Part shown: piece after piece, positions 1,033-26,551 of the stretch
How positions within the stretch are numbered: position 1 is the first letter of the stretch
Layout: each line of letters starts with the position of its first letter
Assembly: GCA_963662335.2 (NCBI GenBank)
Contig: CAXXVD010000001.1
Location: forward strand, 192,001-256,000
DNA from: Chloroflexota bacterium
Lineage (GTDB): Bacteria; Chloroflexota; UBA11872; VXOZ01
Direction of reading: 5' to 3'
DNA length: 64,000 nt
Made by a program: the position numbers and the translations under genes
The notes under the pieces: generated by a model
Told to the model about the DNA's origin: nothing
Databases searched by the model: none
What the model saw: only the letters and a program-made list of their open reading frames with translations

Positions 1033-1383
1033 ATCCGTATCCTCGGCTGGGGCTGACTCATGCTTCCGCGGACCGCTCCCTTCCCGCGGCGACCGGCGAG
1101 CGTCGCTTGCAACGCCGCCGCAGCCGGTCGGAGCGTGCGCAATGCTTCCGTTATCATACTGCTCGCGCAGTAGGCAGTCGAGTCTTTGCCAGCGCGGTGA
1201 GTTTCGCCTTACCTGCACGTGAGACCATGTCAGATTTATGTGAAGTCACGCAAATTGCGCATAGCAAACTTCAAGACAAGGCGCCGTCCAAACACGTGTA
1301 TAATCATTGGTGCGGGCGTGACGCGATGGGGGTCGCTGCACGTCCGAGACTATCTTTACCATGGAAATTGCGCGGCAGCCGCC

Positions 1384-1452
1384 GTCATTCCCGCGAACGC
1401 GGGAATCCATCTTCGCCGCGCCTGCCTGGACTCCGGCTTCCGCCGGCGTGAC
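1384..1452. repeat. REP-like doublet, family A (GTCATTCCCGCG..CGCGGGAATCC and inverted copy)
   Basis: Palindromic arms plus spacer CCATCTTCGCCGCGC, shared with the copies at 15276-15345 and 22574-22643. Confidence 0.85.
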
Positions 1453-1516
1453 GACCACGCAGCCGCGCGAAAGCGAAAATCCACTACGCTAGACACAAGC
1501 GGGGGCACTGAAGCAC

Positions 1517-2110
1517 ATGCGCGCCATTCTGAGCGTATTCGACAAGACCGGCATCGTTGCGTTTGCCGCCGGATTGGCCGAACTCGGCTGCGAAATCATC
1601 TCTACCGGCGGCACCCAATCCGCGCTGGCAGCGGCCAACGTGCCCGTCACCGGCATTAGCGCGGTCACCGGCTTTCCGGAGATTCTGGACGGGCGCGTCA
1701 AGACGCTGCATCCGGTGGTGCATGCCGGCATTCTGGCGCGCCGGGACTTGCCGGCGCACACGCAGACCCTGCGCGCCCACGGCATCGCGCCCATAGACGT
1801 GGTGGCCGTGAACCTCTATCCCTTCGTGGAAACCCTGAAGAGCGGGGCCGATCACGCTGAGATCGTGGAGAACATCGACATCGGCGGCCCCACGCTCATC
1901 CGCGCCGCCGCCAAGAACGCCGACTCCGTGCTGGTAGTGGTAGACCCGCACGACTACACGCCGGTGCTCGACGCGCTCGCGGCCGGGCAAGCTGACAAAG
2001 CACTACGCGCGCGCTTGGCAACCAAGGCCTTTCAACACACGGCATCCTATGATGCCCACGTCGCCGCGTACTTCGATGAAATGCGCGGCAACCAACCTGC
2101 ACCAGACTGA
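1517..2110 (+). CDS. purH: IMP cyclohydrolase (PurH N-terminal MGS-like domain only)
   Basis: RAILSVFDKTG, STGGT, GFPEILDGRVKTLHP, VNLYPF, ENIDIGGPTLIRAAAKN, AFQHTASYD. Stops before the LRYGENPHQ AICAR transformylase domain. Confidence 0.85.
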   Translation: MRAILSVFDKTGIVAFAAGLAELGCEIISTGGTQSALAAANVPVTGISAVTGFPEILDGRVKTLHPVVHAGILARRDLPAHTQTLRAHGIAPIDVVAVNLYPFVETLKSGADHAEIVENIDIGGPTLIRAAAKNADSVLVVVDPHDYTPVLDALAAGQADKALRARLATKAFQHTASYDAHVAAYFDEMRGNQPAPD

Positions 2111-2166
2111 AACCGCAGACTGGGCAATTGCAGTGAAACCGTTCACAATGACGGCGGGAGGGCAGC

Positions 2167-2478
2167 GTGCTGCATCCAATCGTTAGTAAGAGGGCCACCG
2201 CAGTAGAACGGCTCTGCCGCCGCTACCGTGTCCGGCGGCTTGACCTCTTTGGTTCAGCCGCGACGCGCCAGGACTGGACTGAAGCGAGCGATCTCGACTT
2301 TCTCGTGGAGTTCGAACCGCTGCCGCCAGGCGTTTATGTCAACGCATACTTTGGTTTGTGGGAAGACTTGCAGCAGCTTTTCGATAGGCCGGTGGATCTG
2401 GTAGTCGAGTCAGCCATCAAGAATCCCTACTTCTTGGAATCAGTCGAGGCAACGAGGACGCCCCTCTATGAGACGTGA
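2167..2478 (+). CDS. Minimal nucleotidyltransferase (MNT) antitoxin of an MNT-HEPN pair
   Basis: LFGSAA...SDLDFLVEF and PVDLV motifs; 103 aa; overlaps the downstream HEPN gene. Confidence 0.85.
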   Translation: MLHPIVSKRATAVERLCRRYRVRRLDLFGSAATRQDWTEASDLDFLVEFEPLPPGVYVNAYFGLWEDLQQLFDRPVDLVVESAIKNPYFLESVEATRTPLYET

Positions 2479-2836
2479 GGGCAAGAAATACCTTTACGAC
2501 ATCTACCTGGCAGCAGCATTGGTTGCAGACTTCACACGCGGTAAGACACACGCGGACTACGAGCGTGATGCCATGCTGCGCGCCGCGGTGGAGCGTAAAC
2601 TCGAAATCATCGGTGAGGCAATGAACCGATTGGCCGCGATCGACAGTACAGCGGCAGCCCGTATAAGCGAATACCGACGCACTATCGCGTTCCGCAACAT
2701 CCTGTCTGATATAGCGCTCATGCCCCAATATGACATGGGTTCTCTTCCTGGCGGCCCAGCCAGAAGACGTTCTCACCCGAGCTCACTGATTGCTGAACCC
2801 GCGTATACAAGATTGTCCCGTCTCTCGGCGCAGTGA
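2468..2836 (+). pseudogene. HEPN/DUF86 (HepT-like) toxin, 3'-truncated
   Basis: YLYDI...AVERKLEIIGEA...IAFRNIL matches DUF86. Similarity stops at RNIL (about 2705), before the His of the R-x4-H motif; the ORF then runs antisense into the convergent gene. Confidence 0.7.
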
Positions 2837-3694
2837 TTTCGGCGCGTACGGTTCCCCAGAGATCGCGCACGCGGGCGAGGGGTTGACCCTTGTCTACGTC
2901 TTGGCCAAGCGCAACCAGACTCTCCAGAAGCCGCCGCATGGCGCAGTGACGTATTCCTGAGTCCAAACGTATGGCGGCATCGCAACCTCCAGCGGCGGGT
3001 CGAGCATGCCGAGATGGCGCAAGCAGCGGCGCACGCCGGCCTTGTAGAGGTCTCTCTCTTCTCTGGCAGCCGTGCCGCCGCCGCCCACCTCGCAACCCAC
3101 GGCGGGTATGCCCTGTTGGTTCGCCCAGGTGGAGAGCGTGCCCGGCGCCCAGCGCATCATCCAGTAGCGCTCCAGCCCAAAGGCCGCGGCCGCCAGCGCC
3201 GAGCGTCGGGCGCAGGCATTGTGGGCTTCCCGGAAGCCGCTGAGCGGAAGCAAGTTGCCTTCGCGTCCGGCGCTGTGGAGGTCGATTACGAGGTCCGCGC
3301 CGCCAACGACCACGCGCGCGAGAACACTGGCCAGACGTTCGGTCACCGAGCCTTCGACCTTACCTGGAAAGGTGCGGTTCAGGTCGAGATCATCCTCCGG
3401 CGCTCTGCGCCGCCCGGCGGCAAAGGCCAGCGGATTGGCGCTCGGTACCAGCGCGACCGTGCCCTGCAACTCTCTGGGCGAGAGTTCTTGCGCCAACTCC
3501 ACCAACGCATGCGGCCCCACCAACTCGTCACCATGGATTCCCGCAACGACGGCGACTCTCGGCCGTGGCACGCTCCCGAAGACGCGGGTAAGGGGTACTT
3601 CTACTCTTGCGCCACTTGGCAGCGAGAATCCCACGAATGCGCACTGCACGGTCTCTCGCACGTAACATGCGGCATTACTCGAAGCGCCAGTCAT
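2718..3694 (-). pseudogene. Succinylglutamate desuccinylase/aspartoacylase family (M14) hydrolase with a 1-nt frameshift near 2928
   Basis: AGIHGDE, NPLAF, DLNRTFPG, VIDLHS and CEVGGG motifs. The C-terminal domain (LGQDVDKGQPLARVRDLWG...ITAPRDG) continues in another frame. Confidence 0.75.
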
Positions 3695-3699
3695 CCGCC

Positions 3700-5022
3700 T
3701 TACGCCCGTTCCACGCCGCACCAAGCGGCAAGCTGCCGGGCGCAGATTTCAAGCCCGCGATAGAAGTCGGCCAGCGAGACGAACTCATCCGGGCTGTGCG
3801 CCTGGGCGATGCCGCCGGGGCCAAAGAGGCAGCCGGGCATCTCCGCCTGGGCGTACCAGGCCAGATCGCTGGCGGCGGAAAACCCTCTGATTGCGGGTTG
3901 CGCGCCGGCCTGCGCGACGTTCTGCGTCAGGAGTTCGATGAACGGATGCTCCGGCGCGGTCTCGAACGCCGGAAACGTCACGTTCCGCAGGCCCCAGGTG
4001 AAGCGCGGCGGATGCGCCCGCAGCCATTCGTCAGTCTGGCAAACCGCGTGCACGAACGCCTCGAATTCCGCCTTCACCCGCTCGCGGGGTTCGTCCGGGT
4101 AGTACCAGATGTTGTACTCGATCGCGCAATAGTTCGCCATGGTGCCGGGATTGTTGACCGCGTTGAGTTGGCCGTCCTGCCCGCCGCCGGGCCCGCCGAT
4201 GAAGATGGCCGGCAGGATAGAGTTGTAGCCGGGCGGGAAGAGCGGGTGCGACTTGCAGTTCACCCACTGGCGCTCCAGGTCTTGGATGGCGGTGACCAGT
4301 TTCACGCCTTTCTCCACCGCGTTGACGCCGGGGCCGTTCTCGCCGGGGGCCAGGTTGCGCCAGCGGCTGCCGGCGTGGGCTTCGCGCCCTTCGATCTCGA
4401 TGCGCAGGTGCTCCAGGCCGCCCTCGGTAGGGATGACGGTCAAGTCGGTCGGCTCGGCGTCCAGCACGGCGTCCGTGGCCGGAAATTTCTCAATGCAGTC
4501 CCGTGTGCCGTTGCCCACCAGTTCCTCATCGCTCACCACGTGGAACCACACGTCGCCCGCCGGGCGATAGCCCGCCGCCAGCACGCTCTTGGCGGCGAAC
4601 AACATGCTGACGAGACCGGCCTTCATGTCGGCCGCGCCGCGGCCGTAGAGCTTGCCGTCTTCAATCTCGCCCGCCCAGGGAGCGCGCGTCCACGCGGATG
4701 TATCCCCCACCGGCACCACGTCGATGTGGCCGTTGAAAGTCAACGACCGGCCGCCGCCGCTGCCGGGCAGCCGCGCCGCCAAGGTGGGATAGCCGTGCCG
4801 CGTCTCCCACGTGTGCACCTCGCAGCCAAGCCCATCGAGAAAGCCGGCAACCAGAGCGCGGCACTTGCGCGTTTCCGCCAGGAACTCCGGGCTCGGGGGG
4901 CTTTGCACGGCCGTCTCGCAGGCGACGAGTTGCTGGAGCAGGGCCGTGGCTTCCGCTTGCGCATCACGGGCCTGGCGCGCAATCGCCGCCGTCGCGCCTG
5001 CTAAAGTGTCTTCGGATGGCAT
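3700..5022 (-). CDS. ArgE/DapE family M20 deacylase
   Basis: FNGHIDVVP, LYGRGAADMKAG, SDEE, AEPT, GREAHAG, GPGGIAQAHSPDE. Confidence 0.9.
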   Translation of the reverse strand: MPSEDTLAGATAAIARQARDAQAEATALLQQLVACETAVQSPPSPEFLAETRKCRALVAGFLDGLGCEVHTWETRHGYPTLAARLPGSGGGRSLTFNGHIDVVPVGDTSAWTRAPWAGEIEDGKLYGRGAADMKAGLVSMLFAAKSVLAAGYRPAGDVWFHVVSDEELVGNGTRDCIEKFPATDAVLDAEPTDLTVIPTEGGLEHLRIEIEGREAHAGSRWRNLAPGENGPGVNAVEKGVKLVTAIQDLERQWVNCKSHPLFPPGYNSILPAIFIGGPGGGQDGQLNAVNNPGTMANYCAIEYNIWYYPDEPRERVKAEFEAFVHAVCQTDEWLRAHPPRFTWGLRNVTFPAFETAPEHPFIELLTQNVAQAGAQPAIRGFSAASDLAWYAQAEMPGCLFGPGGIAQAHSPDEFVSLADFYRGLEICARQLAAWCGVERA

Positions 5023-5151
5023 GGATGGGACTCCCAGTGACATAGTTTCAGAAGGTAAACTTTAGCGCCGTGGCCGGTAAACCGCTGGTGCACCTTGAGT
5101 TTGTGGCTAGATCTTGGGCAGCGCCATAGCGTCATGCGGCAGCGACTAGGT

Positions 5152-5244
5152 TGTCATTCCGAGCGCAGCGAGGAATCTAGAGTCCACCACCCATGTCGTC
5201 AGACTTTGCAGCACTTTAGATTCCTCGCTGCGCTCGGAATGACA
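5152..5244. repeat. REP-like doublet, family B (TGTCATTCCGAGCGCAGCGAGGAATCT and inverted copy)
   Basis: Perfect inverted arms of about 27 bp. The same unit occurs at 6361-6454, with a single arm at 61249-61276. Confidence 0.85.
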
Positions 5245-17919: not shown

Positions 17920-19101
17920 ATGGCAACGTTCGACGTGGTGCTCAAGGGTGGGCGTGTGCTCGACCCGGCCCAGGGCATAGACGCCCCGCTGGACGTGGGC
18001 GTAAAGCACGGCCGGATCACCGCTTTGGAGCAAGGCCTGCCGGCGGACGACGCGTGGCTCGCGCTCGACGTCGCCGATCACTTCGTCACCCCCGGCCTCA
18101 TCGACATCCACACGCACCTCTATTGGGGCGGCGCCGATCTCGGCGTGCTGCCGGACGCCACCTGTCTGCCCAGCGGCGTGACCACGGCGGTGGATGCCGG
18201 CAGCGCGGGTTGGGCGAATTTCACCGGCCTGCGCCACTTCATCATCGGCCAGGCGCGCACGCGGGTCTTCGCCTTCGTCAATATCTCCAGCATCGGCATT
18301 ACCGACATGCGCGTGGGCGAGAGTCTCAACCTGGCCTACTGCGGCGTGGAAGACGCGATCAAGGCGATCGAGGCAAACCGCGGCGTGGCGCTGGGCGTGA
18401 AAGTGCGCGTGGCGGAAAAGATCACCGGCCCCAACGGTCTGGAACCCTTGCGCCGCGCGGCGGAGGCGCGCGACGCCACGCATACGCGCATGATGGTGCA
18501 CATCTCCGACTGCGAACAGCCGGTGCAGGAAATCCTGGAACACCTGAAGCCAGGCGACATCATCACCCACTGCTTCACGGGACGCGGCCGGCTCATCCTC
18601 AACCAGCAAACGGGCGCGGTGCTGCCGGAGGTGCGCGCGGCGCAGCAAAGCGGCATCGCCTTCGACGTGGGCCACGGGCAGGGCAGCTTTTCCTTTGCGG
18701 TGGCGCGGGCGGCGTTGGACGACGGCTTCCTGCCGGATACGATCAGCACCGACCTGCACGCCTATTCGTCCCACTTCACCGCGCGCAGCCTGCCCGACGT
18801 GATGTCCAAGTTCCTCTTCCTGGGCCGGGACGTGCCCGACGTGGTGGCGCGGACAACCCAGAACGCCGCGGCCGCCATTGGCCGGGCGGACACGCTGGGC
18901 CATCTGCGCGTGGGCGGCGTTGCCGACGTGGCGGCCCTGCGTCTGGAATCCGGGCCGTATCACATGCGAGACGCCGAGGACGAAGAAATCACCGGCGACC
19001 GGCGCCTCGCGGCCACCTACACCGTCCGCGCCGGTGACGTGTACAACCAAGCGGGCCGGCCGGTACGCCGCTGGTACGGGCCGCGCCCTGAGGAGGCATG
19101 A
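17920..19101 (+). CDS. Dihydroorotase-like amidohydrolase/deacetylase
   Basis: PGLIDIHTH, GVTTAVDAGSAG, GVKVR, MVHI, THCF, FDVGHGQGSF, TISTDLH. Confidence 0.88.
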   Translation: MATFDVVLKGGRVLDPAQGIDAPLDVGVKHGRITALEQGLPADDAWLALDVADHFVTPGLIDIHTHLYWGGADLGVLPDATCLPSGVTTAVDAGSAGWANFTGLRHFIIGQARTRVFAFVNISSIGITDMRVGESLNLAYCGVEDAIKAIEANRGVALGVKVRVAEKITGPNGLEPLRRAAEARDATHTRMMVHISDCEQPVQEILEHLKPGDIITHCFTGRGRLILNQQTGAVLPEVRAAQQSGIAFDVGHGQGSFSFAVARAALDDGFLPDTISTDLHAYSSHFTARSLPDVMSKFLFLGRDVPDVVARTTQNAAAAIGRADTLGHLRVGGVADVAALRLESGPYHMRDAEDEEITGDRRLAATYTVRAGDVYNQAGRPVRRWYGPRPEEA

Positions 19102-19102
19102 A

Positions 19103-20161
19103 ATGAATGCTATGCGATTGCCGGGAAGACTCTCCACGACTCTCCGCCACTCCGGCGCAAGCCGGAGTCCAGAGGGCGCCGGCAAGCTGGATTCCGGCTT
19201 GCGCCGGAATGACTATGCCGAGATTTCCGCTTTCGCCGGCAGACGCCGGCTTTGCAAGACTATCTCTCGGCTCCCCTGGTTTGCCGGTCTCGCAATACTC
19301 GCGCTGGCGTTGCTGCTGGGCGCATGCGCCACTGACGCGGGAAGTGAGCCGTTGCAGTCCGACGAAATGAGCGCCGCTGCGTCGGCAACCCCGGCGCAAA
19401 CCGAGCAGGCCGCGCCGGCTGCGGCCGACGCCGCCGCAGACACTGGCTCGACCGCGTCTACGGCGGCCACGTCGTTGACCGGCGCGCCGGCAGCGCGCAT
19501 TACAGACATCCGGTTTGGGAAACATGACGACTTCGAGCGCCTGGTGATCGACTTCGCCACGGACGAAGAGTCCGCACGCGCGGTACCGCATTGGCGGATC
19601 GAGAAGGCGGCAGGGGAGGGAGTAGTGCGGATTCATCTCCCCACCACGACAGAGACCGCGTTCACCGATGCGCAACTGGCAGACAAGTTCACGTGGTTCA
19701 CCCATGTTTACGTCGTCCGCGCGCCGGACCGCAGTCTGTTCGTGGACGTATTCATACCCGGCGCCTACCAGTTGCGCGTGCAGGAGTTGCGCAACCCGCT
19801 GCGGTTGGCAATCGACGTGGCGCCCGGCGGCACGGAAACCTACGTGCTCCCGGCCACCACCGAGCACACGGCGCTCATCGCGCCGCGACCCGGCGCAACC
19901 ATCCACGGCACGTTGACGGTGAGCGGCTACTCGCGGCACTTCGAGGGCAACAACGTCATCATACTGCAGGATAGCGAGGGCAATGAGTTAGCCCGCGCCG
20001 TCACCACGGCCACCGACTACATCGAGACGTGGGGCTTTTTCGCTACCCAGCTTACGGTTCCGGCGGCTACGGGCAGCGGGATGTTGCTCGTCGGTGACTT
20101 CGACGCTAAAGATGGGGAGTTCGAAGGCGTGACCATACCGGTGCAGTTTGGCGGTCCATAG
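19103..20161 (+). CDS. Lipoprotein with AMIN-like domain and C-terminal Gmad2 Ig-like domain
   Basis: AGGAGG RBS, LLLGAC lipobox, DIRFGKHDDFERLVIDF...NPLRLAIDV, and PRPGATI..TLTVSG.SRHFEG. The N-terminus contains an in-frame REP doublet. Confidence 0.7.
   Translation: MNAMRLPGRLSTTLRHSGASRSPEGAGKLDSGLRRNDYAEISAFAGRRRLCKTISRLPWFAGLAILALALLLGACATDAGSEPLQSDEMSAAASATPAQTEQAAPAAADAAADTGSTASTAATSLTGAPAARITDIRFGKHDDFERLVIDFATDEESARAVPHWRIEKAAGEGVVRIHLPTTTETAFTDAQLADKFTWFTHVYVVRAPDRSLFVDVFIPGAYQLRVQELRNPLRLAIDVAPGGTETYVLPATTEHTALIAPRPGATIHGTLTVSGYSRHFEGNNVIILQDSEGNELARAVTTATDYIETWGFFATQLTVPAATGSGMLLVGDFDAKDGEFEGVTIPVQFGGP
19146..19213. repeat. REP-like doublet, family A variant, inside a CDS
   Basis: GCCACTCCGGCGCAAGCCGGAGTCCA ... 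TGGATTCCGGCTTGCGCCGGAATGAC. Confidence 0.8.
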
Positions 20162-20200
20162 CCGCGAGCGGCCGCTTGAGTAGACCATTGTTGCACGGGT

Positions 20201-20581
20201 ATGACCGTAGCGCGGGGGCTTGTCCCCCGCTCCGCGTCGCATGGATCCCGGCCTGCGTCGGCTTGACGGTGCTGTCAGCGGAATCGACGGTATTATCGGC
20301 GGGCATGACCGTAGCGCGGGGGCTTGTCCCCCGCTCCGCGTCGCATGGATCCCGGCCTGCGTCGGCTTGACGGTGGTATTAGCGGAATTGACGGTAATAC
20401 CGGCGGGTATAACCGTAGCGCGGGGGCTTGTCCCCCGCTCCGGGTCGCATGGATCCCAGCCTGCGCCGGAATGACGGTGGTATTAGCGGAATTGACGGTA
20501 ATACCGGCGGGCATGACCGTAGCGCGGGGGCTTGTCCCCCGCTCCGGGCCGCATGGATCCCGGCTTGCGCCGGAATGACGG
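20201..20581. repeat. Tandem array of a 104-bp composite REP unit (3 full copies plus 1 partial)
   Basis: Units start at 20201, 20305, 20409 and 20513. Each contains GTAGCGCGGGGGCTTGTCCCCCGC plus a family-A arm. Confidence 0.9.
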
Positions 20582-20663
20582 AAACGCTTGCGGCAACAGC
20601 GGCGGCGGTGCTGTCCGTTCTAACCGGGCGCGTTCAGGATACGTCACACATGAGAGAGGCACC

Positions 20664-21440
20664 ATGAGCGAACATCACTGGTTCGACGACTTGCAGGATG
20701 AGGAGTTTCTAAGCTGGGCGTCCACGTTCGAGGAAGTACAAGAGAGCGGCTGCGACACGGCGCTCTTCTGCATCGGCGCCATCGAGCAGCACTCGTACCA
20801 CATGCCGCTCGGCACCGACTGGCTGCTGGGCCTTGCCGGCAGCCGCCTGCTGGCGCGTGAGTTGGCAAAGCGCGGGCTGATCGTCTACCTCCTGCCGCCG
20901 ATTCCCATCGGCACCTCCAGCGAGTTCCTCAACTACATGGGCACGCTCAGCTTCAAGCCCGCCACCGTAGCCGCCATCCTGGAAGACATCGCGGCCTGCC
21001 TCAAGCGCCAGGGGTTCAAGCGCATGATCGTCACCAGTTCCCACGGCGGCAACTGGATTCTCAAGCCTACCATCCGCGAACTCAATATGTGGGACCCGGA
21101 CTTCCTGGTGATGTGGGGCGCGCCCGTGGGCGCGGGCGGCTCGGGCCCAGGCAAGGACCGGCACTCCGGCGAGAGCGAGACCTCGCGCCTCATGTACGCC
21201 TATCCCGAACTGATGCGCACCGAGAAGGTGGTGGACTCTTCCCCCGATCTGGGCTCCGAGTTCGTGGACATGATCCCCACGGAATACTATACGCCGAGCG
21301 GCGTGTGGGGCTTTCCCACCAAGGCGGACCGTGACGCCGGCGAAGAGCGCACAAAGCAGGGCGTGGAACGCCAGGCCGGCTACATCATGGAGACCATCGA
21401 GAAGCTGGACGACATGCGGCGCGAGCGCGAGCAGGAGTAG
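20664..21440 (+). CDS. Creatininase family protein
   Basis: GAIEQHSYHMPLGTD, GTLS, SHGGN, HSGESETS, SGVWG. Confidence 0.9.
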   Translation: MSEHHWFDDLQDEEFLSWASTFEEVQESGCDTALFCIGAIEQHSYHMPLGTDWLLGLAGSRLLARELAKRGLIVYLLPPIPIGTSSEFLNYMGTLSFKPATVAAILEDIAACLKRQGFKRMIVTSSHGGNWILKPTIRELNMWDPDFLVMWGAPVGAGGSGPGKDRHSGESETSRLMYAYPELMRTEKVVDSSPDLGSEFVDMIPTEYYTPSGVWGFPTKADRDAGEERTKQGVERQAGYIMETIEKLDDMRREREQE

Positions 21441-21473
21441 CCGCCAGGCTTGCGCCGACCCGCGGTTAGCAAG

Positions 21474-21503
21474 TTGACAACCAGGCATACTTTGCGCTAT
21501 ACT
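21474..21503 (+). promoter_or_regulatory. Sigma70-type promoter for the galU-like gene
   Basis: TTGACA-18 nt-TATACT, about 40 nt upstream of the ATG. Confidence 0.65.
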
Positions 21504-21543
21504 ACATTGGCAGCGTATCTCCTCTCACGGAGCACCCTCTCCC

Positions 21544-22434
21544 ATGGCGCAGCCCTCCCATGTTTCCAAGGCCGTCATTCTCGTTGCCGGTCTCGGCACC
21601 CGCTTGCTCCCGGCCACCAAGTCCCAGCCCAAGGAGATGCTGCCCGTCGGCCGCAAGCCGGTGGTGCAGTACGTCGCGGAGGAAATGGAACAAGCCGGCA
21701 TCAACCAGATTCTCTTCGTTACCGGCCGCAAGAAGAGTTCCATCGAAGACCACTTCGACCGTGATCCCGATCTGGAAGAGCGCTTGGCGGACGGCGACGA
21801 TTTGTCGCTGGGGGAGAAACTGCCAAACTTCGATACCGTGCTCCACGTTTTCTACACGCGCCAGAGCGTGCAAGCCGGACAGGCCGACGCCGTGCGCCTC
21901 GCCCGCGAGTTCGTGGGGGACGATCCTTTCGTGGTGGCCTTTGGCGATACCATCATCAAAGGCGGCAATCTGCTCAAGCGCATGATCGACAGCCACGCGC
22001 AGAGTGGCGCGGCGTGCACGGTAGCCGTGGAACAGGTGCCGCCGGAAGATGCCCATCGCTACGGCGTCGTGATGCCCAAAGACGGTCTTGAAAGCGAATT
22101 CCCTATCCAGGGCATTGTAGAAAAACCGCCGCGCGGCGCCGAGCCAAGCAACTTCGCCGTGGTGCCGCGCTACGTGATGAACCGCGAGATCTTCGAGGCG
22201 ATCCGGCTCACCTTGCCCGGCAAGGGCAACGAACTCTGGCTGGCCGACTCCATCGAAGTGCTCATCAAACAGCAGCAACCGGTGCAGTGCGTTGCCCTGG
22301 CCCCGGACGAGACGCGCTACGACATCGGCAACTTCGAGACGTACTTCAAGGCGTTCATCGACTTCGCGCTCTCTGACGAAAAGTACGGCTACCTGGTGCG
22401 CCAACACCTGCGGCGCAAGGCGGCAGCGCTTTAG
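21544..22434 (+). CDS. galU: UTP:sugar-1-phosphate uridylyltransferase (GalU-like)
   Basis: KAVILVAGLGTRLLPATKSQPKEMLPV, IEDHFD, GD, RYGVV, VEKP, RYDIG. Confidence 0.85.
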   Translation: MAQPSHVSKAVILVAGLGTRLLPATKSQPKEMLPVGRKPVVQYVAEEMEQAGINQILFVTGRKKSSIEDHFDRDPDLEERLADGDDLSLGEKLPNFDTVLHVFYTRQSVQAGQADAVRLAREFVGDDPFVVAFGDTIIKGGNLLKRMIDSHAQSGAACTVAVEQVPPEDAHRYGVVMPKDGLESEFPIQGIVEKPPRGAEPSNFAVVPRYVMNREIFEAIRLTLPGKGNELWLADSIEVLIKQQQPVQCVALAPDETRYDIGNFETYFKAFIDFALSDEKYGYLVRQHLRRKAAAL

Positions 22435-22573
22435 TTGCGATAGGAACCCCTTGCGCCAAGCGGTCAAGCGGGCACAATAAATCCCCCTCTCCCCCAGGGA
22501 GAGGGGAGAAAGCAGACTGGTCTCAATGGCCGTCTGCCGGCCGCTTACAAAAGTGAACACTGGCGTCCTGTTC

Positions 22574-22643
22574 GTCATTCCCGCGCACGCGGGAATCCAC
22601 CGACTGCGCGGCAAAGATGGATTCCCGCGTGCGCGGGAATGAC
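22574..22643. repeat. REP-like doublet, family A
   Basis: GTCATTCCCGCGCACGCGGGAATCC ... GGATTCCCGCGTGCGCGGGAATGAC; 70 bp. Confidence 0.9.
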
Positions 22644-22675: not shown

Positions 22676-23746
22676 ATGAGTTCGGCGATGGCAGAACCAG
22701 ACACCGCACCGGCGACCAAAGTCGCTTCCGCGCCGGGCCGTTGCGGCATCATCGGCAACCCGACCGACATGTACGGCGGCAGCGTGCTCTCGTGCACCAT
22801 CCCCCAGCGCGGCTACGTTTCCATTCGCCCCGCGGACCGGCTTATCCTCGAATCCGATCAAGGCACGCTCACCGTCCGCGCCCGCGACGACTTGCGCCAG
22901 CGCGGCGACCACTTCGACGTGCTCCGCGCCGTCATTTCCCAGCAGCAGTGCCTGGGCATGAAGGCGCACTTTACGTGCTGGAGCGACGTGCCGGTCGGCT
23001 CCGGCCTCTCAAGCTCTTCTTCATTGGTAGTTGCCGCCCTCTATGCCCTCACCCACTATCAGGGACGCGCCCTGGGCAAGTACTACTTCGCGGAGACGGC
23101 CCGCGCCATCGAACTCAACGACATGGGCGTTGTCTGCGGCTACCAGGACTTCTATATGCCCACGTTTGGCGGCCTCAACTACCTGGACTTCCGCGACAAG
23201 GAGTTTTACCGCGAGGTGCACAGCGAACCGTACGCCACTGTTGAGCCGCTCACCGCTCTGGCGCCGGATTTGCCGTTCGTGTTGGCGCATACCGGCGTCG
23301 AACACCGCGCGGGCGTCGTCCACAAGCCGATCCGCGAACGCTGGCTGGAAGGCGAGCGCGTGGTGGTGCAAGCATACGAAAACATCGCGCGCCTGGCGCG
23401 GGAGGGCAAGAAATCTCTACTGGAGCAAGACTGGACGCGCCTGGGCAAACTGATGAATGAGAATCACGCCATCCAGCGAGATCTCGGTGGCTCCGGCGCG
23501 GCTAACGAGCGCCTCATTCAAGCCGCCCTGGACAACGGCGCGCTGGGTGCAAAACTGGCCGGCGCCGGTGACGGCGGCACCATTATCGCGCTGCACCCGG
23601 AACCGGAACATCTCGGCAACTTGCTCAGTGAAGCCGGCGCCGCGCGCATCCTGCGCCTACAGCCCGTAGAAGGCGTCCGCCTCGAAGTCGTTGCGCAAGG
23701 TGACGAATCCCATGCCATCGGTTCGATTAGGGAGCGCGCCAAATAG
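22676..23746 (+). CDS. GHMP-family sugar kinase, glucuronokinase-like
   Basis: SAPGR.GIIGNPTD, VPVGSGLSSSS ATP loop, GYQD, FGGL, VHKPIRERWLEG, GAKLAGAGDGG. Confidence 0.8.
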   Translation: MSSAMAEPDTAPATKVASAPGRCGIIGNPTDMYGGSVLSCTIPQRGYVSIRPADRLILESDQGTLTVRARDDLRQRGDHFDVLRAVISQQQCLGMKAHFTCWSDVPVGSGLSSSSSLVVAALYALTHYQGRALGKYYFAETARAIELNDMGVVCGYQDFYMPTFGGLNYLDFRDKEFYREVHSEPYATVEPLTALAPDLPFVLAHTGVEHRAGVVHKPIRERWLEGERVVVQAYENIARLAREGKKSLLEQDWTRLGKLMNENHAIQRDLGGSGAANERLIQAALDNGALGAKLAGAGDGGTIIALHPEPEHLGNLLSEAGAARILRLQPVEGVRLEVVAQGDESHAIGSIRERAK

Positions 23747-23798
23747 AGACGGTCTTTAACGGCCTATGTCTGGCCGGCGGGGCTGAAAGGAGATTGCA

Positions 23799-24188
23799 AT
23801 GGCTACCAAGAGTGCGTTCATCAGCTTCGACTACGACCATGATAACGACCTACGGTGCAACCTCGTAGCGCAGGCCAAGAAACCTGATTCGCCATTCAGC
23901 ATCACGGACTGGTCTGTGAAGGAACCATTTGACGAAAAGTGGCGGGAGAAGGTGCGAGACATCATTGAGAGAACTGACCTTACCATTGTAATCTGTGGGG
24001 AGCATACGCACCAAGCCAAGGGCGTGGAAGCGGAAGTGACGATGGCGCAGCAGGCAGGAAAACCGTACTTCTTGCTTAAAGGCCGCAGGAACAAGACATG
24101 CGCGCGCCCAAAGTCAGCCCCTAAAAAGATGAAAATCCACCCCTGGACATGGCCCACCTTGAAAGAGCTTATTGCTAATCCGAAGTAG
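23799..24188 (+). CDS. TIR-domain protein (MTH538/DUF1863, ThsB-like)
   Basis: AFISFDYDHD, DWSVKEP, TIVICG..T, GVEAEV (putative catalytic Glu), GKPYFLL; AAAGGAG RBS. Confidence 0.85.
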   Translation: MATKSAFISFDYDHDNDLRCNLVAQAKKPDSPFSITDWSVKEPFDEKWREKVRDIIERTDLTIVICGEHTHQAKGVEAEVTMAQQAGKPYFLLKGRRNKTCARPKSAPKKMKIHPWTWPTLKELIANPK

Positions 24189-24191
24189 GTT

Positions 24192-24704
24192 ATGGATAAG
24201 CAAGCGCGAGAATCCGTAGTGCACCAGTGTGAGGAAACCTACGGCGGTTCTTTCCATGTGGATCTTCTTGATCAGTACAAAGTCTACGTACAGTCCGCCG
24301 AGCAAGTCAGCGCCCGTCGTGTCGCGGCAAACCGCTTTATGCTAACCATCAACGCCGCGCTGGTTGCGCTGTACGGGCTACAATCCGCCAGTTTTGGCCA
24401 GGGCTACTGGACGCTGCTCATTCCGGTTATAGGGATCCCTGTATCTGTGCTGTGGTACCTGATCATCAAGTCACACGCTGATCTGAATCGCATCAAGTTT
24501 GATGTGATTCACGAACTTGAGCAACATTTGCCAGCAGCGATGTACAGGTATGAGTGGACGATGGCTGAAGAAGGGCAGGGCAAGACCTACCGCGCGGTGA
24601 CCAACCTAGAACGATGCGTACCTATCCTGTTTGCCGTACTGCATATTGCCCTAGGAGTTGTAATGGTCCTGGCAATCGTCGGCGTAATGAATTGGACAGA
24701 ATAA
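24192..24704 (+). CDS. Small 3-TM membrane protein, putative effector of the TIR protein
   Basis: QYKVYVQSAEQVSARRVAANRFML N-terminal helix, three hydrophobic segments, LNRIKFDVIHELEQHLP..Y..EW. Starts 3 nt after the TIR stop. Confidence 0.75.
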   Translation: MDKQARESVVHQCEETYGGSFHVDLLDQYKVYVQSAEQVSARRVAANRFMLTINAALVALYGLQSASFGQGYWTLLIPVIGIPVSVLWYLIIKSHADLNRIKFDVIHELEQHLPAAMYRYEWTMAEEGQGKTYRAVTNLERCVPILFAVLHIALGVVMVLAIVGVMNWTE

Positions 24705-24724
24705 CCACCGCATTAGGAAAATAG

Positions 24725-24976
<252 letters not shown>

Positions 24977-24985
24977 ACATTCACT

Positions 24986-25123
24986 ATGCGATTCAAGCTA
25001 GACGAAAACCTGCCGCTCCAGCTAGAGCGTCTGTTTACGGAAGCCGGCCACGATGCGGTCACAGTCCTCGACGAGGGGCTTGGCGGCGCGGCAGGAAAGC
25101 GCAAGACCCGTCTATTCACATAG
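24986..25123 (+). pseudogene. DUF5615 PIN-like toxin, N-terminal fragment
   Basis: My translation: MRFKLDENLPLQLERLFTEAGHDAVTVLDEGLGGAA, then unrelated GKRKTRLFT*. Only 45 aa. Confidence 0.75.
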
Positions 25124-25130
25124 ACGGGTC
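25105..25130 (-). terminator. Probable rpoD terminator hairpin
   Basis: GACCCGTCTA-ttcaca-TAGACGGGTC, a perfect 10-bp stem downstream of rpoD. Confidence 0.6.
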
Positions 25131-25246
25131 ATCCGGTTCTAAGATTAGCTCTGTTGCCGACCCGCGCTGAGTTCTGGCGAGAGCCGGAATTTCGGCAATC
25201 TCAGCCACTAGCAGCAACCGACTGCTGACAGCTTAGCTGGAGGTCT

Positions 25247-26551
25247 TTACAGGTCCAGGTAATCCTTCAGCTTCTGGCTCCGCGCCGGGTGGCGCAGTTT
25301 GCGCAGGGCTTTCGCCTCGATCTGGCGGATGCGCTCGCGGGTAACGCTGAACTCGCGGCCAACCTCTTCCAGGGTGCGGGTGCGGCCGTCCTCCAGCCCG
25401 AAGCGCAGGCGCAGCACCTTGCGCTCCCGGTCGGAGAGCGAGTTGAGCACCGCTTCCACCTGTTCCCGCAGCATTTGGTAGGAGGCCGCGTCTGCCGGCG
25501 ACATGGTGGACTCGTCCGGGATGAACTCGCCCAAGTGGCTGTCTTCCTCTTCGCCAATGGGCGTCTCCAGGCTCACCGGCTCCTGCGAGACCTTGATGAT
25601 TTCGCGCACCTTGAACTCCGGGATGTCCATCTCGGTCCCGATTTCCTCGGAGGTCGGCTCGCGGCCCTTCTCCTGCACGAGTCGCCGCGAGATGCGCACC
25701 AGCTTGTTGATCGTCTCCACCATGTGCACGGGAATGCGGATCGTGCGCGCCTGGTCGGCAATGGAGCGCGTGATCGCCTGCCGGATCCACCAGGTGGCGT
25801 AGGTGCTGAACTTGAAGCCCTTGCCGTAGTCGAATTTCTCAACCGCGCGGATGAGGCCGATGTTGCCCTCTTGAATGAGGTCCAGCAGCGACATGCCGCG
25901 TCCCACGTACTTCTTGGCCATGCTCACCACCAGGCGCAGGTTCGCCTCGGTCAGGCGCTTGCGCGCCTCGATGCCGATCTTGATCGTGCGTTCCAGCCGC
26001 CGGATGTCGTCCAGGCTCATGCCCTCGCGGTTCTCAAGCTCTTCCTCGGCAAAGAGCCTCTTCTCCATCTGCTTGGCGAGCATGACCTCCTGCGCGGCGG
26101 TAAGCAGCGGCACGCGCCCAATCTCGCGCAAGTAGGTGCGCACCGGGTCGTCCAACGTGCCCGTGTCCTCTTCTCCACCCTTCGCGGCCTTCAGCGCGGC
26201 CCGCTCCAGCGCCACCATTTCGGGAACGCTCGGCGTGGCGCGATCTTCCTCATCTTCTTCCTCGCTGTCAACCTCATTGGCCGGCAGGACGTTGAGCCCG
26301 AGATCGGCAAACACCGAGAAGAGTTCCTCGGCTTCGTCGCTGCCCGCCTCGATGTCCGGAAAGGCCTCCAGCAACTCCTCCTGCGTCAGGTGGCCGCGCC
26401 GCTTGCCGCGGTTTACCAGCTTGCGAATGTCCTCTTCGGTAATCTCAAGCTCCGGCGCTTCGGCCTCGGCAGCCGTTGCCGCCCCGGCCTGAGGCGCTTT
26501 CTTTTCCGCGGCGGTCTGGACGGCGGTGGTAGTCTTCTGCGCAGCCATCAC
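25247..26551 (-). CDS. rpoD: RNA polymerase primary sigma factor
   Basis: [69 protein letters not shown]. Confidence 0.97.

What the first reader, a model, noticed from the sequence alone, without database searches (positions are those of the whole stretch)
23786..24704. TIR plus small membrane protein: a candidate minimal Thoeris-like anti-phage system
Seen: a 129-aa stand-alone TIR with an intact putative catalytic Glu (GVEAEV), followed after 3 nt by a 170-aa protein with three hydrophobic segments and a polar N-terminal helix (QYKVYVQSAEQVSARR..AN). The cassette is about 50-55% GC by eye against a clearly richer host, and sits with a TA remnant between housekeeping genes. Known: ThsB TIRs make NAD-derived signals that activate SIR2-SLOG, TM-Macro or caspase-like effectors; none of these domains is present. 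I recall the membrane protein family being annotated as an oligomeric (RipA-like, octameric) membrane protein, which is unverified. Inference: the TIR senses phage and activates a pore-forming effector, through a new signal molecule or direct contact. This is the best candidate for an undescribed system in the window.
Basis: partly seen in the sequence, partly recalled or inferred. Interest (0 to 1): 0.82.

Follow-up and report, generated by a model that had tools for sequence, protein, structure and literature searches.

The report
TIR plus RipA-family membrane effector cassette
A small mobile two-gene cassette, a TIR enzyme followed by a ring-forming membrane protein, looks like a new effector variant of the Thoeris family of bacterial anti-virus alarm systems, and in related genomes it usually sits inside restriction-enzyme operons.

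Summary
A 129-aa ThsB-type TIR (23799-24188) with invariant Glu79 is followed after 3 nt by a 170-aa membrane protein of Pfam family 8xMP (24192-24704). The cassette is 52% GC against 65% for the rest of the window. In 79 related loci from many phyla, 77 have the same small TIR directly upstream. The other two have an IS-split TIR and a larger TIR-domain protein. Seven of 8 inspected plasmid loci with distant 8xMP relatives are also TIR-linked, including TIR-NB-ARC-WD40 and caspase-TIR-8xMP-TIR arrangements. A type I restriction-modification gene lies within 6 kb in 51 of 79 loci, and 39 are sandwiched between hsdS/hsdM and hsdR. None shares the window's housekeeping flanks. 8xMP models confidently and passes a self-assembly test (0.54 against 0.00 for controls). 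It has no solved or viral structural relative. Its only recurrent remote signal is sub-threshold SLATT. The best reading is a Thoeris-type signalling system with a new membrane effector family. It is analogous to types V (DUF2270) and VII (SLATT) of a December 2025 preprint, whose main text does not name this family. Function remains untested.

The parts
23782..25089 (+). Extent of the foreign, low-GC segment shared at DNA level with related loci. It holds the TIR, 8xMP, DUF433 and the 5' part of DUF5615.
   Evidence: blastn of window 23300-25500 against the 79 loci: all similarity falls within 23782-25089. GC is 0.51-0.56 here against 0.62-0.69 around it.
23786..23792 (+). Shine-Dalgarno motif AAAGGAG, 6 nt upstream of the TIR start codon
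   Evidence: Read directly from the sequence.
23799..24188 (+). thsB-like gene: 129-aa stand-alone TIR protein with putative catalytic Glu79
   Evidence: PF08937 E=1.6e-9. PADLOC ThsB 3e-7. AF2 model pLDDT 92.4. Best PDB match 8FZ9 B. cereus TIR, TMq 0.78, followed by ThsB structures. E79 invariant in 53 of 53 sequences.
24192..24704 (+). Putative effector gene: 170-aa 8xMP/RipA-family membrane protein. It has a cytoplasmic N-terminal helix, a helical hairpin through the membrane, a cytoplasmic helical insert and a C-terminal TM helix.
   Evidence: PF24838 E=1.4e-36. AF2 pLDDT 91.7, helices 21-66, 73-110, 117-127 and 136-163. 4-copy model ipSAE 0.54 against a best control of 0.00. Invariant R43, L113, P114, E121, W122, E140 in 72 diverse members.
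24749..24976 (+). DUF433 antitoxin-like gene (75 aa), intact. It travels with the pair in some relatives.
   Evidence: PF04255 E=2.4e-23. Homologues occur in 13 of 79 loci, 10 of them downstream of 8xMP.
24986..25123 (+). Truncated DUF5615/PIN-like toxin gene remnant (45 codons against about 117 in intact relatives)
   Evidence: PF18480 E=3e-6, matching profile positions 1-35 of 110. The intact 117-aa homologue in L049 matches positions 1-109. DNA similarity to relatives ends at 25089.
25097..25138 (.). Inverted repeat (19-nt arms, 84% complementary, 4-nt loop) between the remnant and the 3' end of the convergent sigma-70 gene. Possibly a terminator.
   Evidence: the repeat finder pair I1. The terminator scan did not call it.

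Best explanation
This is a two-gene Thoeris-type (TIR-signalling) abortive-infection module on a small mobile cassette.

Proposed mechanism:
1. The 129-aa ThsB-like TIR is the infection-responsive enzyme. Using Glu79, it converts NAD+ into an ADP-ribose-derived signal nucleotide.
2. The 170-aa 8xMP/RipA-family protein is the effector. It sits in the cytoplasmic membrane as a ring homo-oligomer.
3. It binds the signal at a conserved cytoplasmic site formed at or near protomer interfaces. That site is built from the N-terminal helix, the juxtamembrane end of helix 2 and the short helix 113-127, with conserved Y29, S40, R43, N99, K102, F103, E110, L113, P114, E121, W122 and E140.
4. It then changes conformation and compromises the membrane, which stops the infected cell.

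Shown here: the domain identities, the invariant Glu, strict TIR-8xMP linkage across phyla and across TIR architectures, defence-island and type I R-M context in relatives, mobility, and predicted self-assembly.

Inferred: signal production, ligand binding, membrane disruption and phage protection.

The window's copy is an orphan. It was inserted between two convergent housekeeping genes together with a DUF433/DUF5615 TA pair whose toxin gene has since been truncated.
For: 1. Domains: PF08937 and PF24838. The TIR fold is closest to B. cereus BcTir (8FZ9, TMq 0.78), then ThsB structures 9B7D, 6LHY and 8WCF.
2. Catalytic Glu79 is invariant in 53 of 53 sequences and present in 77 of 78.
3. Linkage: 77 of 79 genome loci have a small TIR ORF abutting 8xMP on the same strand. 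The two exceptions are an IS (DDE transposase) inserted between a truncated ThsB_TIR and 8xMP (L064) and a 491-aa TIR_2 protein two genes upstream (L059). Many contig lengths are shared between the two independent homologue lists.
4. Linkage persists at 27-40% identity. Of 8 plasmid loci inspected (out of 31 records), 6 have a small TIR directly upstream. One has a TIR-NB-ARC-WD40 protein ending 1 nt before 8xMP. One has no recognisable partner. The only constant across partner architectures is the TIR domain, which points to 8xMP reading a TIR output.
5. Thoeris hallmarks are present. A second TIR gene occurs in about 10 loci and two full TIR-8xMP pairs lie in tandem in L039. A caspase-TIR-8xMP-TIR operon occurs in C. 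perfringens plasmids, and a TIR-caspase pair lies 2.7 kb from TIR-8xMP in Paenarthrobacter.
6. Defence context: type I R-M genes lie within 6 kb in 51 of 79 loci. 39 of 79 are sandwiched hsdS/M...TIR-8xMP...hsdR on one strand. SoFic, PDC-S45, PDC-M24B, PDC-S09 and TA genes lie nearby.
7. Mobility: 0 of 79 loci share the 8 tested housekeeping flank proteins of the window. The cassette GC is lower than the flanks by at least 3 points in 63 of 78 loci. Hosts span Chloroflexota, Latescibacterota, Nitrospirales, Proteobacteria, Acidobacteriota, Planctomycetota and a Thaumarchaeote.
8. Effector properties: confident helical membrane model (pLDDT 91.7). The 4-copy model scores ipSAE 0.54, 0.54 and 0.52 against a best of 3 controls of 0.00, with partner pLDDT 73 and runs agreeing in at least 85% of contacts. 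The mark was reached by 20 of 30 proteins solved as pairs of one chain and 1 of 23 single chains, and these counts hold only roughly here. Invariant L113, P114 and E121 and conserved Y29, S40, R42 and K102 lie in the predicted interface.
9. Precedent: validated Thoeris types V (3-TM DUF2270, ring oligomer with interface pockets) and VII (SLATT) work this way according to preprint 10.64898/2025.12.03.692087 (sections read).
10. Sub-threshold SLATT_1 similarity is the only recurrent remote signal: 7 of 72 members in NCBIfam and 2 of 72 in Pfam.
Against: - There is no functional evidence of any kind. Protection, NADase or cyclase activity, ligand binding and membrane damage are all untested.
- 8xMP has no recognisable nucleotide-binding domain. 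It matches no PADLOC model and no solved or viral structure at E<=1e-3.
- The window protein does not itself match SLATT or DUF2270.
- The window copy sits among housekeeping genes with no other defence gene beside it, next to a decayed TA module. It could therefore be a relic, although both ORFs are intact.
- An automatic label ties the family to Francisella RipA, a membrane protein with an envelope/LpxA-related role and no described TIR partner.
- The 79 loci are the best 80 of 254 matches to a query built from close relatives, so linkage in the rest of the roughly 2430-cluster family was sampled only through 8 plasmid loci.
- The self-assembly score comes from a 4-copy job unlike the calibration, and it says nothing about ring size.
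Confidence: 0.6

Rival explanations
1. Restriction-modification guard, similar to PrrC. The pair is an accessory of type I R-M enzymes. It is held inactive by, or monitors, the HsdR/HsdMS complex and fires when a phage anti-restriction protein disables it. TIR and 8xMP would then act as backup suicide module.
For: 39 of 79 loci are sandwiched between hsdS/hsdM and hsdR on one strand. In 16 of those 39 the hsdR alignment starts between -6 and +48 nt from the 8xMP stop, which suggests translational coupling. Three database proteins are 8xMP-HsdR read-through fusions. A Polaromonas plasmid has hsdR-TIR-8xMP-PIN. The PrrC precedent is recalled from my own knowledge and was not checked in any paper here.
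Against: 28 of 79 loci and the window itself have no type I R-M gene within reach. 7 of the 8 plasmid loci inspected have none adjacent. The slot between hsdS and hsdR also holds unrelated cargo such as SoFic, PDC-S45 and TA genes, so it may simply be a hotspot for defence genes. This reading is also compatible with the main explanation as a trigger mechanism.
Confidence: 0.12
2. Roles reversed, or direct contact. The membrane protein is the sensor or anchor, detecting for example phage DNA injection or membrane perturbation. The TIR is the effector and depletes NAD+, activated by protein-protein contact rather than by a diffusible signal.
For: The TIR is only 129 aa with no separate sensor domain. 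The genes are 3 nt apart or overlapping in nearly all loci, which is compatible with a stoichiometric complex. In 6 loci the extra upstream TIR paralogue carries a C-terminal hydrophobic extension that would place a TIR at the membrane. TIR and 8xMP divergence co-vary (Mantel r=0.52, 0 of 999 permutations reach it; related loci are not independent).
Against: In Rhizobium the partner is a TIR-NB-ARC-WD40 protein that carries its own sensor module, so 8xMP is not needed there as a sensor. In C. perfringens 8xMP sits beside a caspase-family Thoeris-type effector with two TIRs, which is the pattern of alternative effectors. Single-domain ThsB proteins are the norm in validated Thoeris systems according to the preprint read. 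Direct TIR-8xMP binding was not tested because the single complex job went to self-assembly.
Confidence: 0.12
3. Inverted (Panoptes-like) signalling. The TIR makes its product constitutively and the product keeps 8xMP closed. Phage sponges or NAD+-depleting counter-defences remove the ligand and release the membrane effector.
For: The architecture, a minimal nucleotide-producing enzyme plus a small TM effector, fits both this logic and classical Thoeris. A 2026 review title and abstract in the search listing (PMC13712596) describe such inversion for Panoptes. The mechanism itself is recalled and was not read.
Against: No specific evidence supports it. The closest validated relatives, TIR plus TM effectors of types V and VII, were reported to produce the signal only on infection.
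Confidence: 0.06
4. Not defence. 8xMP is a RipA-like housekeeping envelope protein, for example a regulator of lipid A/LpxA, and the TIR-like protein is a nucleotide- or nucleoside-processing partner. Alternatively the pair is a selfish addiction (toxin-antitoxin-like) module.
For: The Atlas cluster label is 'RipA family octameric membrane protein'. Francisella RipA is a homo-oligomeric cytoplasmic-membrane protein with two essential cytoplasmic domains. It co-precipitates with LpxA and is transcribed alone (passages of PMC4322802, PMC2767360 and PMC12444477). The TIR fold also resembles the nucleotide hydrolases MilB and DNPH1. The cassette sits beside TA genes.
Against: The cassette's position varies. 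It is GC-deviant, spread across phyla and one archaeon, sometimes duplicated within a genome, and IS-disrupted in L064. These are features of accessory genes, not housekeeping genes. It lies in R-M or defence contexts in 55 of 79 loci. Glu79 conservation and ThsB-family membership point to TIR chemistry. The RipA link is a label only; no sequence comparison with RipA was made.
Confidence: 0.07

Closest known systems
Type V Thoeris (ThsB + ThsF/DUF2270, PF10028), preprint 10.64898/2025.12.03.692087
   Same: A two-gene operon of a small TIR and a small effector with three membrane helices. The effector is predicted to form a ring homo-oligomer with ligand pockets between protomers. It is found in defence islands and works by a TIR-made ADPR-derived signal (3'cADPR).
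   Different: The effector family differs. The window protein matches PF24838, and PF10028 does not appear among its hits or among the 25 of 64 families listed for 72 relatives. ThsF was modelled as a heptamer, whereas the Pfam name here implies an octamer. The signal is unknown here.
Type VII Thoeris (ThsB + ThsH/SLATT) and CBASS SLATT effectors
   Same: A TIR plus a small helical membrane effector that oligomerises. SLATT_1 is the only family that recurs at sub-threshold level among 8xMP members: 7 of 72 in NCBIfam with best E 0.0015, and 2 of 72 in Pfam with best E 0.0029.
   Different: The window protein itself gives no SLATT hit at E<=1. 8xMP has an extra C-terminal TM helix. ThsH was modelled as a filament-like hexamer. 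No profile-profile comparison could be run because no SLATT sequences were at hand.
BcTir/BcTpr operon of Bacillus cereus (PDB 8FZ9), which has the architecture of type VIII Thoeris
   Same: The window TIR's closest solved structure is BcTir (TMq 0.78, E 5e-8; sequence E 0.0035). Glu79 aligns with BcTir Glu82.
   Different: The partner there is a MilB-like glycosidase-TPR protein, not a membrane protein. Sequence identity is only about 20%. The BcTir preprint (10.1101/2023.05.26.542521, passages read) reports BcTir itself as inactive, which differs from the Sorek preprint's account of type VIII TIRs.
Type II Thoeris (ThsB + TM-Macro ThsA)
   Same: A TIR signal activates a membrane-spanning effector that oligomerises and kills (PMC11204291 abstract and passages; preprint introduction).
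   Different: There is no Macro domain here. The ligand-binding part would have to be the small helical cytoplasmic face of 8xMP itself.
Francisella tularensis RipA
   Same: Similar size: 178 aa from the 537-nt coding sequence reported in PMC2767360, against 170 aa here. Both are homo-oligomeric cytoplasmic-membrane proteins with two cytoplasmic domains (PMC4322802 passages). This matches the topology and self-assembly predicted here. An Atlas cluster with 93% PF24838 carries the RipA-family name.
   Different: RipA is monocistronic, and the passages read describe no TIR partner. Its known phenotype is intracellular growth and LpxA interaction. Membership of RipA in PF24838 was not tested by sequence here.
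PrrC/RloC-type genes embedded in type I R-M loci (recalled from my own knowledge)
   Same: An abortive-infection gene placed between hsdS and hsdR of a type I R-M operon, as in 39 of 79 relatives.
   Different: Those are anticodon nucleases with no TIR or membrane protein. The window's copy is not in an R-M locus.

Membership tests
Thoeris (TIR-signalling defence systems) | A ThsB-type TIR protein with the catalytic glutamate | tested here: met
   PF08937 38.5 bits against a cut-off of 21.2. E79 invariant in 53 of 53. Fold closest to BcTir and ThsB structures.
Thoeris (TIR-signalling defence systems) | The TIR gene is conserved in an operon with a non-TIR effector gene | tested here: met
   77 of 79 loci are directly adjacent on the same strand. 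The other two are TIR-linked through an IS insertion or a larger TIR protein. 7 of 8 plasmid loci are TIR-linked.
Thoeris (TIR-signalling defence systems) | Enrichment next to known defence genes | tested here: met
   Relatives: a type I R-M gene within 6 kb in 51 of 79 loci and any defence-like neighbour in 55 of 79. The window copy itself has housekeeping flanks plus a TA remnant. No formal background rate was computed.
Thoeris (TIR-signalling defence systems) | The TIR makes an NAD-derived signal on infection that activates the effector, and the system protects against phage | not testable with these tools
   This needs phage challenge, LC-MS and toxicity assays.
Thoeris type V (ThsF) | The effector belongs to DUF2270 (PF10028) | tested here: not met
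   The only Pfam hit at E<=1 is PF24838. PF10028 is not among the 25 families listed of 64 for the 72 relatives at E<=10.
Thoeris type VII / SLATT effectors | The effector matches a SLATT model at the curated threshold | tested here: not met
   The window protein gives no SLATT hit. There are only sub-threshold hits in 2 of 72 members (Pfam) and 7 of 72 (NCBIfam). A remote relationship remains possible.
Thoeris types I, II, IV | The effector carries SIR2-SLOG, Macro or caspase-like domains | tested here: not met
   None is detected in the 170-aa protein.
Pfam PF24838 (8xMP) | Score above the gathering threshold over the whole domain | tested here: met
   125.7 bits against 30, covering profile positions 1-134 of 136. 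72 of 72 relatives match.
Pfam PF24838 (8xMP) | Homo-oligomeric (octameric) membrane assembly | tested here: inconclusive
   A 4-copy model supports self-association (0.54 against a best of 3 controls of 0.00; mark reached by 20 of 30 proteins solved as pairs of one chain and 1 of 23 single chains). Ring size could not be tested because at most 4 copies are allowed.
RipA family (Francisella) | Sequence homology to Francisella RipA | not tested
   There is only an automatic Atlas cluster name. No RipA sequence was available to compare. No RipA model appeared among the NCBIfam families listed (one search lists 25 of 37).
PADLOC candidate PDC-M50 | Both components A and B are present | tested here: not met
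   The TIR hits PDC-M50B at 6.3e-6, but the membrane protein hits no PADLOC model at E<=1.
DUF433/DUF5615 toxin-antitoxin pair | Intact antitoxin and intact PIN-like toxin | tested here: not met
   DUF433 is intact. DUF5615 is cut to 45 codons and matches profile positions 1-35 of 110.

The most novel reading that the evidence does not exclude
The 8xMP/RipA family is a previously unrecognised class of nucleotide-gated ring channels in the cytoplasmic membrane. TIR-8xMP would then be a distinct, widespread Thoeris type, with at least 2430 clusters at 50% identity in the effector family. It may use a signal different from those of types I-XI. It would normally be wired into type I restriction operons as a second line that fires when restriction fails. 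By extension, Francisella RipA would be a domesticated relative of an immune effector.
Probability: 0.25. Interest if true: 0.75.

Novelty: new variant of a known kind. Interest (0 to 1): 0.6.

Why it matters
If confirmed, this would have four consequences.

- **New Thoeris effector.** It would add a new and abundant effector family to TIR-based bacterial immunity. It would also extend that immunity into poorly studied lineages (Chloroflexota/Dehalococcoidia, Latescibacterota, Nitrospirales, haloarchaea and a Thaumarchaeote).
- **A function for the family.** It would give the first functional handle on Pfam family 8xMP. That family has no solved structure and no literature under that name (searches found nothing relevant).
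- **Link to restriction.** It would show TIR signalling modules as regular cargo inside type I restriction operons, often translationally coupled to hsdR. That raises the testable idea of coupling between restriction failure and abortive infection.
- **RipA.** It would suggest a new way to think about RipA-type membrane proteins.

If the pair is already in the unseen Table S1 of the December 2025 preprint, the value drops to independent comparative support for an unvalidated predicted type.

Tried and rejected
- **Literature on the family name.** Searches for '8xMP', 'octameric membrane protein', 'PF24838', 'PDC-M50', 'ThsF/DUF2270' and TIR with hsdR/hsdS found no description of this pair. A search for 'RipA, octamer, membrane protein' was swamped by RIPA-buffer papers.
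- **Solved structures by sequence.** Nothing was found for 8xMP.
- **Fold searches with the 8xMP model.** There were 0 matches at E<=1e-3 in both PDB and BFVD.
- **ESM Atlas, skipping PF24838.** The best score was 0.81, and a cluster with 13% PycTM scored 0.76. All are below the level that counts as more than a lead.
- **Genome scan with the 72-sequence alignment.** It failed because the alignment had no conserved stretch. I repeated it with a closer 18-sequence alignment.
- **Fused forms.** The 'longer' search gave only 3 8xMP-HsdR read-throughs and no TIR-8xMP fusion. The tool itself calls finding none weak evidence.
- **Phage collection.** The single hit is the same Haematospirillum plasmid record.
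- **Promoter and terminator scan of the cassette.** It found nothing above the shuffled expectation.
- **Flanking direct repeats.** Only short, low-identity pairs were found, with no convincing target-site duplication.
- **Model coordinates.** None are available to scripts, so pocket geometry and electrostatics could not be computed.
- **Closed resources.** bioRxiv supplements are closed, so Table S1 of the key preprint, which may list this effector, could not be seen.
Full report
**1. Observation**

23799..24188 (+) encodes 129 aa and 24192..24704 (+) encodes 170 aa, 3 nt apart. An AAAGGAG motif lies 6 nt before the first ATG.

The first protein matches Pfam ThsB_TIR (PF08937, E=1.6e-9, above the gathering score). 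It also matches PADLOC ThsB models (3e-7) and the candidate PDC-M50B (6e-6). The second matches Pfam PF24838, 'octameric membrane protein family (8xMP)', at E=1.4e-36. It matches nothing in PADLOC or NCBIfam.

The cassette is 52.2% GC against 65.1% for the rest of the window.

Downstream lie an intact DUF433 gene (24749..24976) and a 45-codon remnant of a DUF5615/PIN-like toxin gene (24986..25123). The remnant covers only profile positions 1-35 of 110.

The flanks are housekeeping genes. An NTP-transferase and a GHMP kinase lie upstream, and a sigma-70 factor lies convergent downstream. A 621-aa ORF beyond the sigma-70 gene looks like a DnaG primase from its translation, but it was not scanned.

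The only nuance is that just two of the three hydrophobic segments are strongly hydrophobic (72-94 and 139-170).

**2. The pair is conserved as a pair**

Both proteins have many close relatives of the same length. The search found 808 relatives of 8xMP and 1298 of the TIR. The 120 listed for each are 69-100% and 69-89% identical respectively, and many contig lengths occur in both lists.

A scan of one genome per species (GTDB) with an 18-sequence 8xMP alignment found 254 relatives. The best 79 loci were kept.

With HMMs built from the hits, 77 of the 79 loci have a small TIR ORF ending at the start of the 8xMP gene on the same strand. The two exceptions are also TIR-linked:
- In L064 a DDE transposase sits between a truncated ThsB_TIR ORF and 8xMP.
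- In L059 a 491-aa protein with a TIR_2 domain lies two genes upstream.

About ten loci carry a second TIR gene, mostly in tandem upstream. L039 has two complete TIR-8xMP pairs in tandem. Three genomes contribute two loci each. Six of the extra TIRs have a C-terminal extension with a hydrophobic stretch.

Glu79 is invariant in a 53-sequence alignment. Pairwise divergence of the two proteins co-varies (Mantel r=0.52; 0 of 999 permutations reach it). Because related loci are not independent, this shows co-inheritance rather than proving co-evolution.

**3. Linkage persists in distant relatives and across TIR architectures**

The 8xMP family is large. It has 2430 clusters at 50% identity with E<=1e-3, and 1247 with E<=1e-10.

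tblastn against PLSDB plasmids found 31 records at 27-40% identity. I inspected 8 of them.
- Six have a small annotated TIR gene immediately upstream. These are Paenarthrobacter, Synechococcus elongatus, Haematospirillum, Clostridium perfringens, the archaeon Haladaptatus, and Polaromonas.
- In Rhizobium leguminosarum the upstream gene ends 1 nt before 8xMP and encodes a 1215-aa TIR-NB-ARC-WD40 protein.
- In Leptolyngbya the partner is a 432-aa protein with no family hit.
- The C. perfringens operon reads caspase-TIR-8xMP-TIR. Paenarthrobacter has a TIR-caspase pair 2.7 kb upstream.

The one constant partner is therefore a TIR domain, whatever it is attached to. In addition, 8xMP can sit beside an established Thoeris-type effector. 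Both facts fit 8xMP as a reader of a TIR product better than as a sensor.

**4. Context: defence islands, especially type I restriction operons**

I clustered all ORFs within about 5 kb of the pair and annotated cluster representatives. Three large recurrent neighbours emerged: HsdS, HsdR and HsdM.

By tblastn:
- 51 of 79 loci carry a type I R-M gene within reach.
- 39 of 79 have hsdS/hsdM upstream and hsdR downstream on the same strand. Among the 66 loci with at least 5 kb on both sides, 36 do.
- In 16 of those 39 the hsdR alignment begins between -6 and +48 nt from the 8xMP stop.

Three database proteins are 8xMP-HsdR read-through fusions.

Other neighbours include SoFic (6 loci), PDC-S45 (5), PDC-M24B (4), PDC-S09 nucleotidyltransferase (5), PIN (12) and DUF433/DUF5615 (13 and 11 loci, mostly directly downstream).

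None of the 79 loci shares any of the 8 tested housekeeping flank proteins of the window. The cassette is at least 3 GC points below its flanks in 63 of 78 loci.

In the window, DNA similarity to the relatives is confined to 23782-25089. The window therefore holds an orphan copy of a mobile unit, TIR-8xMP-DUF433-DUF5615'. It was dropped between two convergent genes, and its toxin gene has lost its 3' part. The window has no type I R-M hit.

**5. The proteins**

*TIR.* The model is confident (pLDDT 92.4). Its best solved match is 8FZ9, 'Bacillus cereus TIR protein' (TMq 0.78, E 5e-8). ThsB structures (9B7D, 6LHY, 8WCF), SARM1 TIR and the MilB/DNPH1 nucleotide hydrolases follow.

8FZ9 is BcTir of the BcTir/BcTpr defence operon (preprint 10.1101/2023.05.26.542521, passages read). 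Its partner, a MilB-like glycosidase plus TPR, has the architecture of the type VIII Thoeris effector in the Sorek-lab preprint.

*8xMP.* The model is also confident (pLDDT 91.7) and all-helical, with helices 21-66, 73-110, 117-127 and 136-163.

The short uncharged loop 64-72 and the charged segments 1-45 and 93-142 suggest an N-in topology with two cytoplasmic regions. The same description is given for Francisella RipA (PMC4322802 passage).

In 72 diverse members, R43, L113, P114, E121, W122 and E140 are invariant. Y29, S40, N54, W88, N99, K102, F103, E110 and P144 are at least 90% conserved. Nearly all of them lie in those two cytoplasmic regions.

A 4-copy model gave ipSAE scores of 0.54, 0.54 and 0.52, against a best of 3 controls of 0.00. 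Partner pLDDT was 73 and the runs agreed in at least 85% of contacts. The mark was reached by 20 of 30 proteins solved as pairs of one chain and by 1 of 23 single chains. These counts hold only roughly because my own alignment and four copies were used.

The interface pairs residues 113-117, 120-121 and one face of helix 1 of one protomer with residues 8-60 and 76-109 of the next. The invariant motif therefore sits at or beside the protomer interface.

No solved or viral structure resembles the fold.

**6. Relation to known systems**

The key reference is Yirmiya et al., bioRxiv December 2025 (10.64898/2025.12.03.692087). I read the outline and abstract, sections 5, 8, 9 and 14, and passages found by term search. 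I could not read its figures or supplements.

That preprint validates Thoeris types V-XI. Type V pairs a TIR with ThsF (DUF2270, three TM helices, ring homo-oligomer with positively charged interface pockets, signal 3'cADPR). Type VII pairs a TIR with the SLATT effector ThsH (signal cADPR). [quoted passage not shown] PF24838 does not occur in its main text.

The window effector is not DUF2270, SLATT, Macro, SIR2-SLOG or caspase by family scans. Among 72 relatives scanned at E<=10, the only family recurring beyond 3 members is SLATT_1: 7 of 72 in NCBIfam (best 0.0015) and 2 of 72 in Pfam (best 0.0029). This is a lead for a remote SLATT relationship, not membership.

The 'RipA family octameric membrane protein' label comes from an automatic Atlas cluster name. 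I could not compare sequences with RipA.

**7. Verdict**

The finding is real.

It is a new effector variant of a known kind rather than a new kind of system. It may already be among the unvalidated predicted types of the 2025 preprint.

The added results here are:
- the strict TIR linkage across phyla and TIR architectures;
- the embedding in type I R-M operons;
- the conserved cytoplasmic interface motif;
- the predicted self-assembly;
- the possible SLATT and RipA connections.

All functional steps remain inferred: signal production, ligand gating, membrane damage and protection.

Noticed in passing
window 20196-20581: Tandem array of a 104-nt unit, 3.7 copies, 93% matches. It lies upstream of a creatininase-like ORF. 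Several overlapping ORFs in 19100-22620 translate to similar 'IPACAGMT'-type peptides, which suggests a dispersed GC-rich repeat element.
   Followed up: partly
window 24749-25123: DUF433 antitoxin gene is intact, but its DUF5615/PIN-like toxin partner is cut to 45 codons. Intact 117-aa versions follow the same TIR-8xMP pair in relatives such as L049.
   Followed up: yes
L004, L011, L023, L053, L062, L065 (second TIR gene about 0.4-1 kb upstream of 8xMP): The extra upstream TIR paralogues are about 170-190 aa. They carry a C-terminal extension with a hydrophobic stretch, possibly a membrane anchor.
   Followed up: partly
L039 4336-6489; contigs OZ220720.1 (L004, L027), OZ242286.1 (L043, L049), CAYRHG01 (L052, L056): One locus has two complete TIR-8xMP pairs in tandem. 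Three genomes carry two separate copies.
   Followed up: no
L064 3062-6507: A DDE transposase (536 aa, PF13546) is inserted between a truncated ThsB_TIR ORF and the 8xMP gene, so this is a disrupted copy of the pair.
   Followed up: yes
P0391, P0392, P0393: Predicted proteins in which 8xMP is fused to HsdR N-terminal/helicase domains. They are probably read-through or gene-call artefacts at the overlapping 8xMP/hsdR junction.
   Followed up: no
L086 (C. perfringens plasmid NZ_CP065633.1) 1995-4308 and 6306-7037: A caspase-TIR-8xMP-TIR operon lies about 2 kb from an annotated cpb2 (beta-2 toxin) gene on a mobilizable plasmid. Only the annotation was read.
   Followed up: partly
L084 (Rhizobium leguminosarum pRL22b6) 1131-5238: A 1215-aa TIR-NB-ARC-WD40 STAND protein is followed after 1 nt by an 8xMP gene. 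This resembles a plant TNL-like sensor wired to this membrane effector.
   Followed up: partly
L068 (Thaumarchaeota MAG) and L087 (Haladaptatus plasmid): The TIR-8xMP pair also occurs in archaea, which implies transfer between domains.
   Followed up: no
L017 3279-4310 and 7 other loci: A 343-aa protein upstream of the pair has weak Nuc_deoxyrib_tr (E 2.8e-5) and PADLOC 'Effector TIR' (7e-10) matches. It occurs in 8 of 79 loci.
   Followed up: no
window 2155-2490: tblastn match (57% over 112 aa) to a PDC-S09-type nucleotidyltransferase seen near the pair in other loci. It is probably an MNT-type TA component elsewhere in the window.
   Followed up: no
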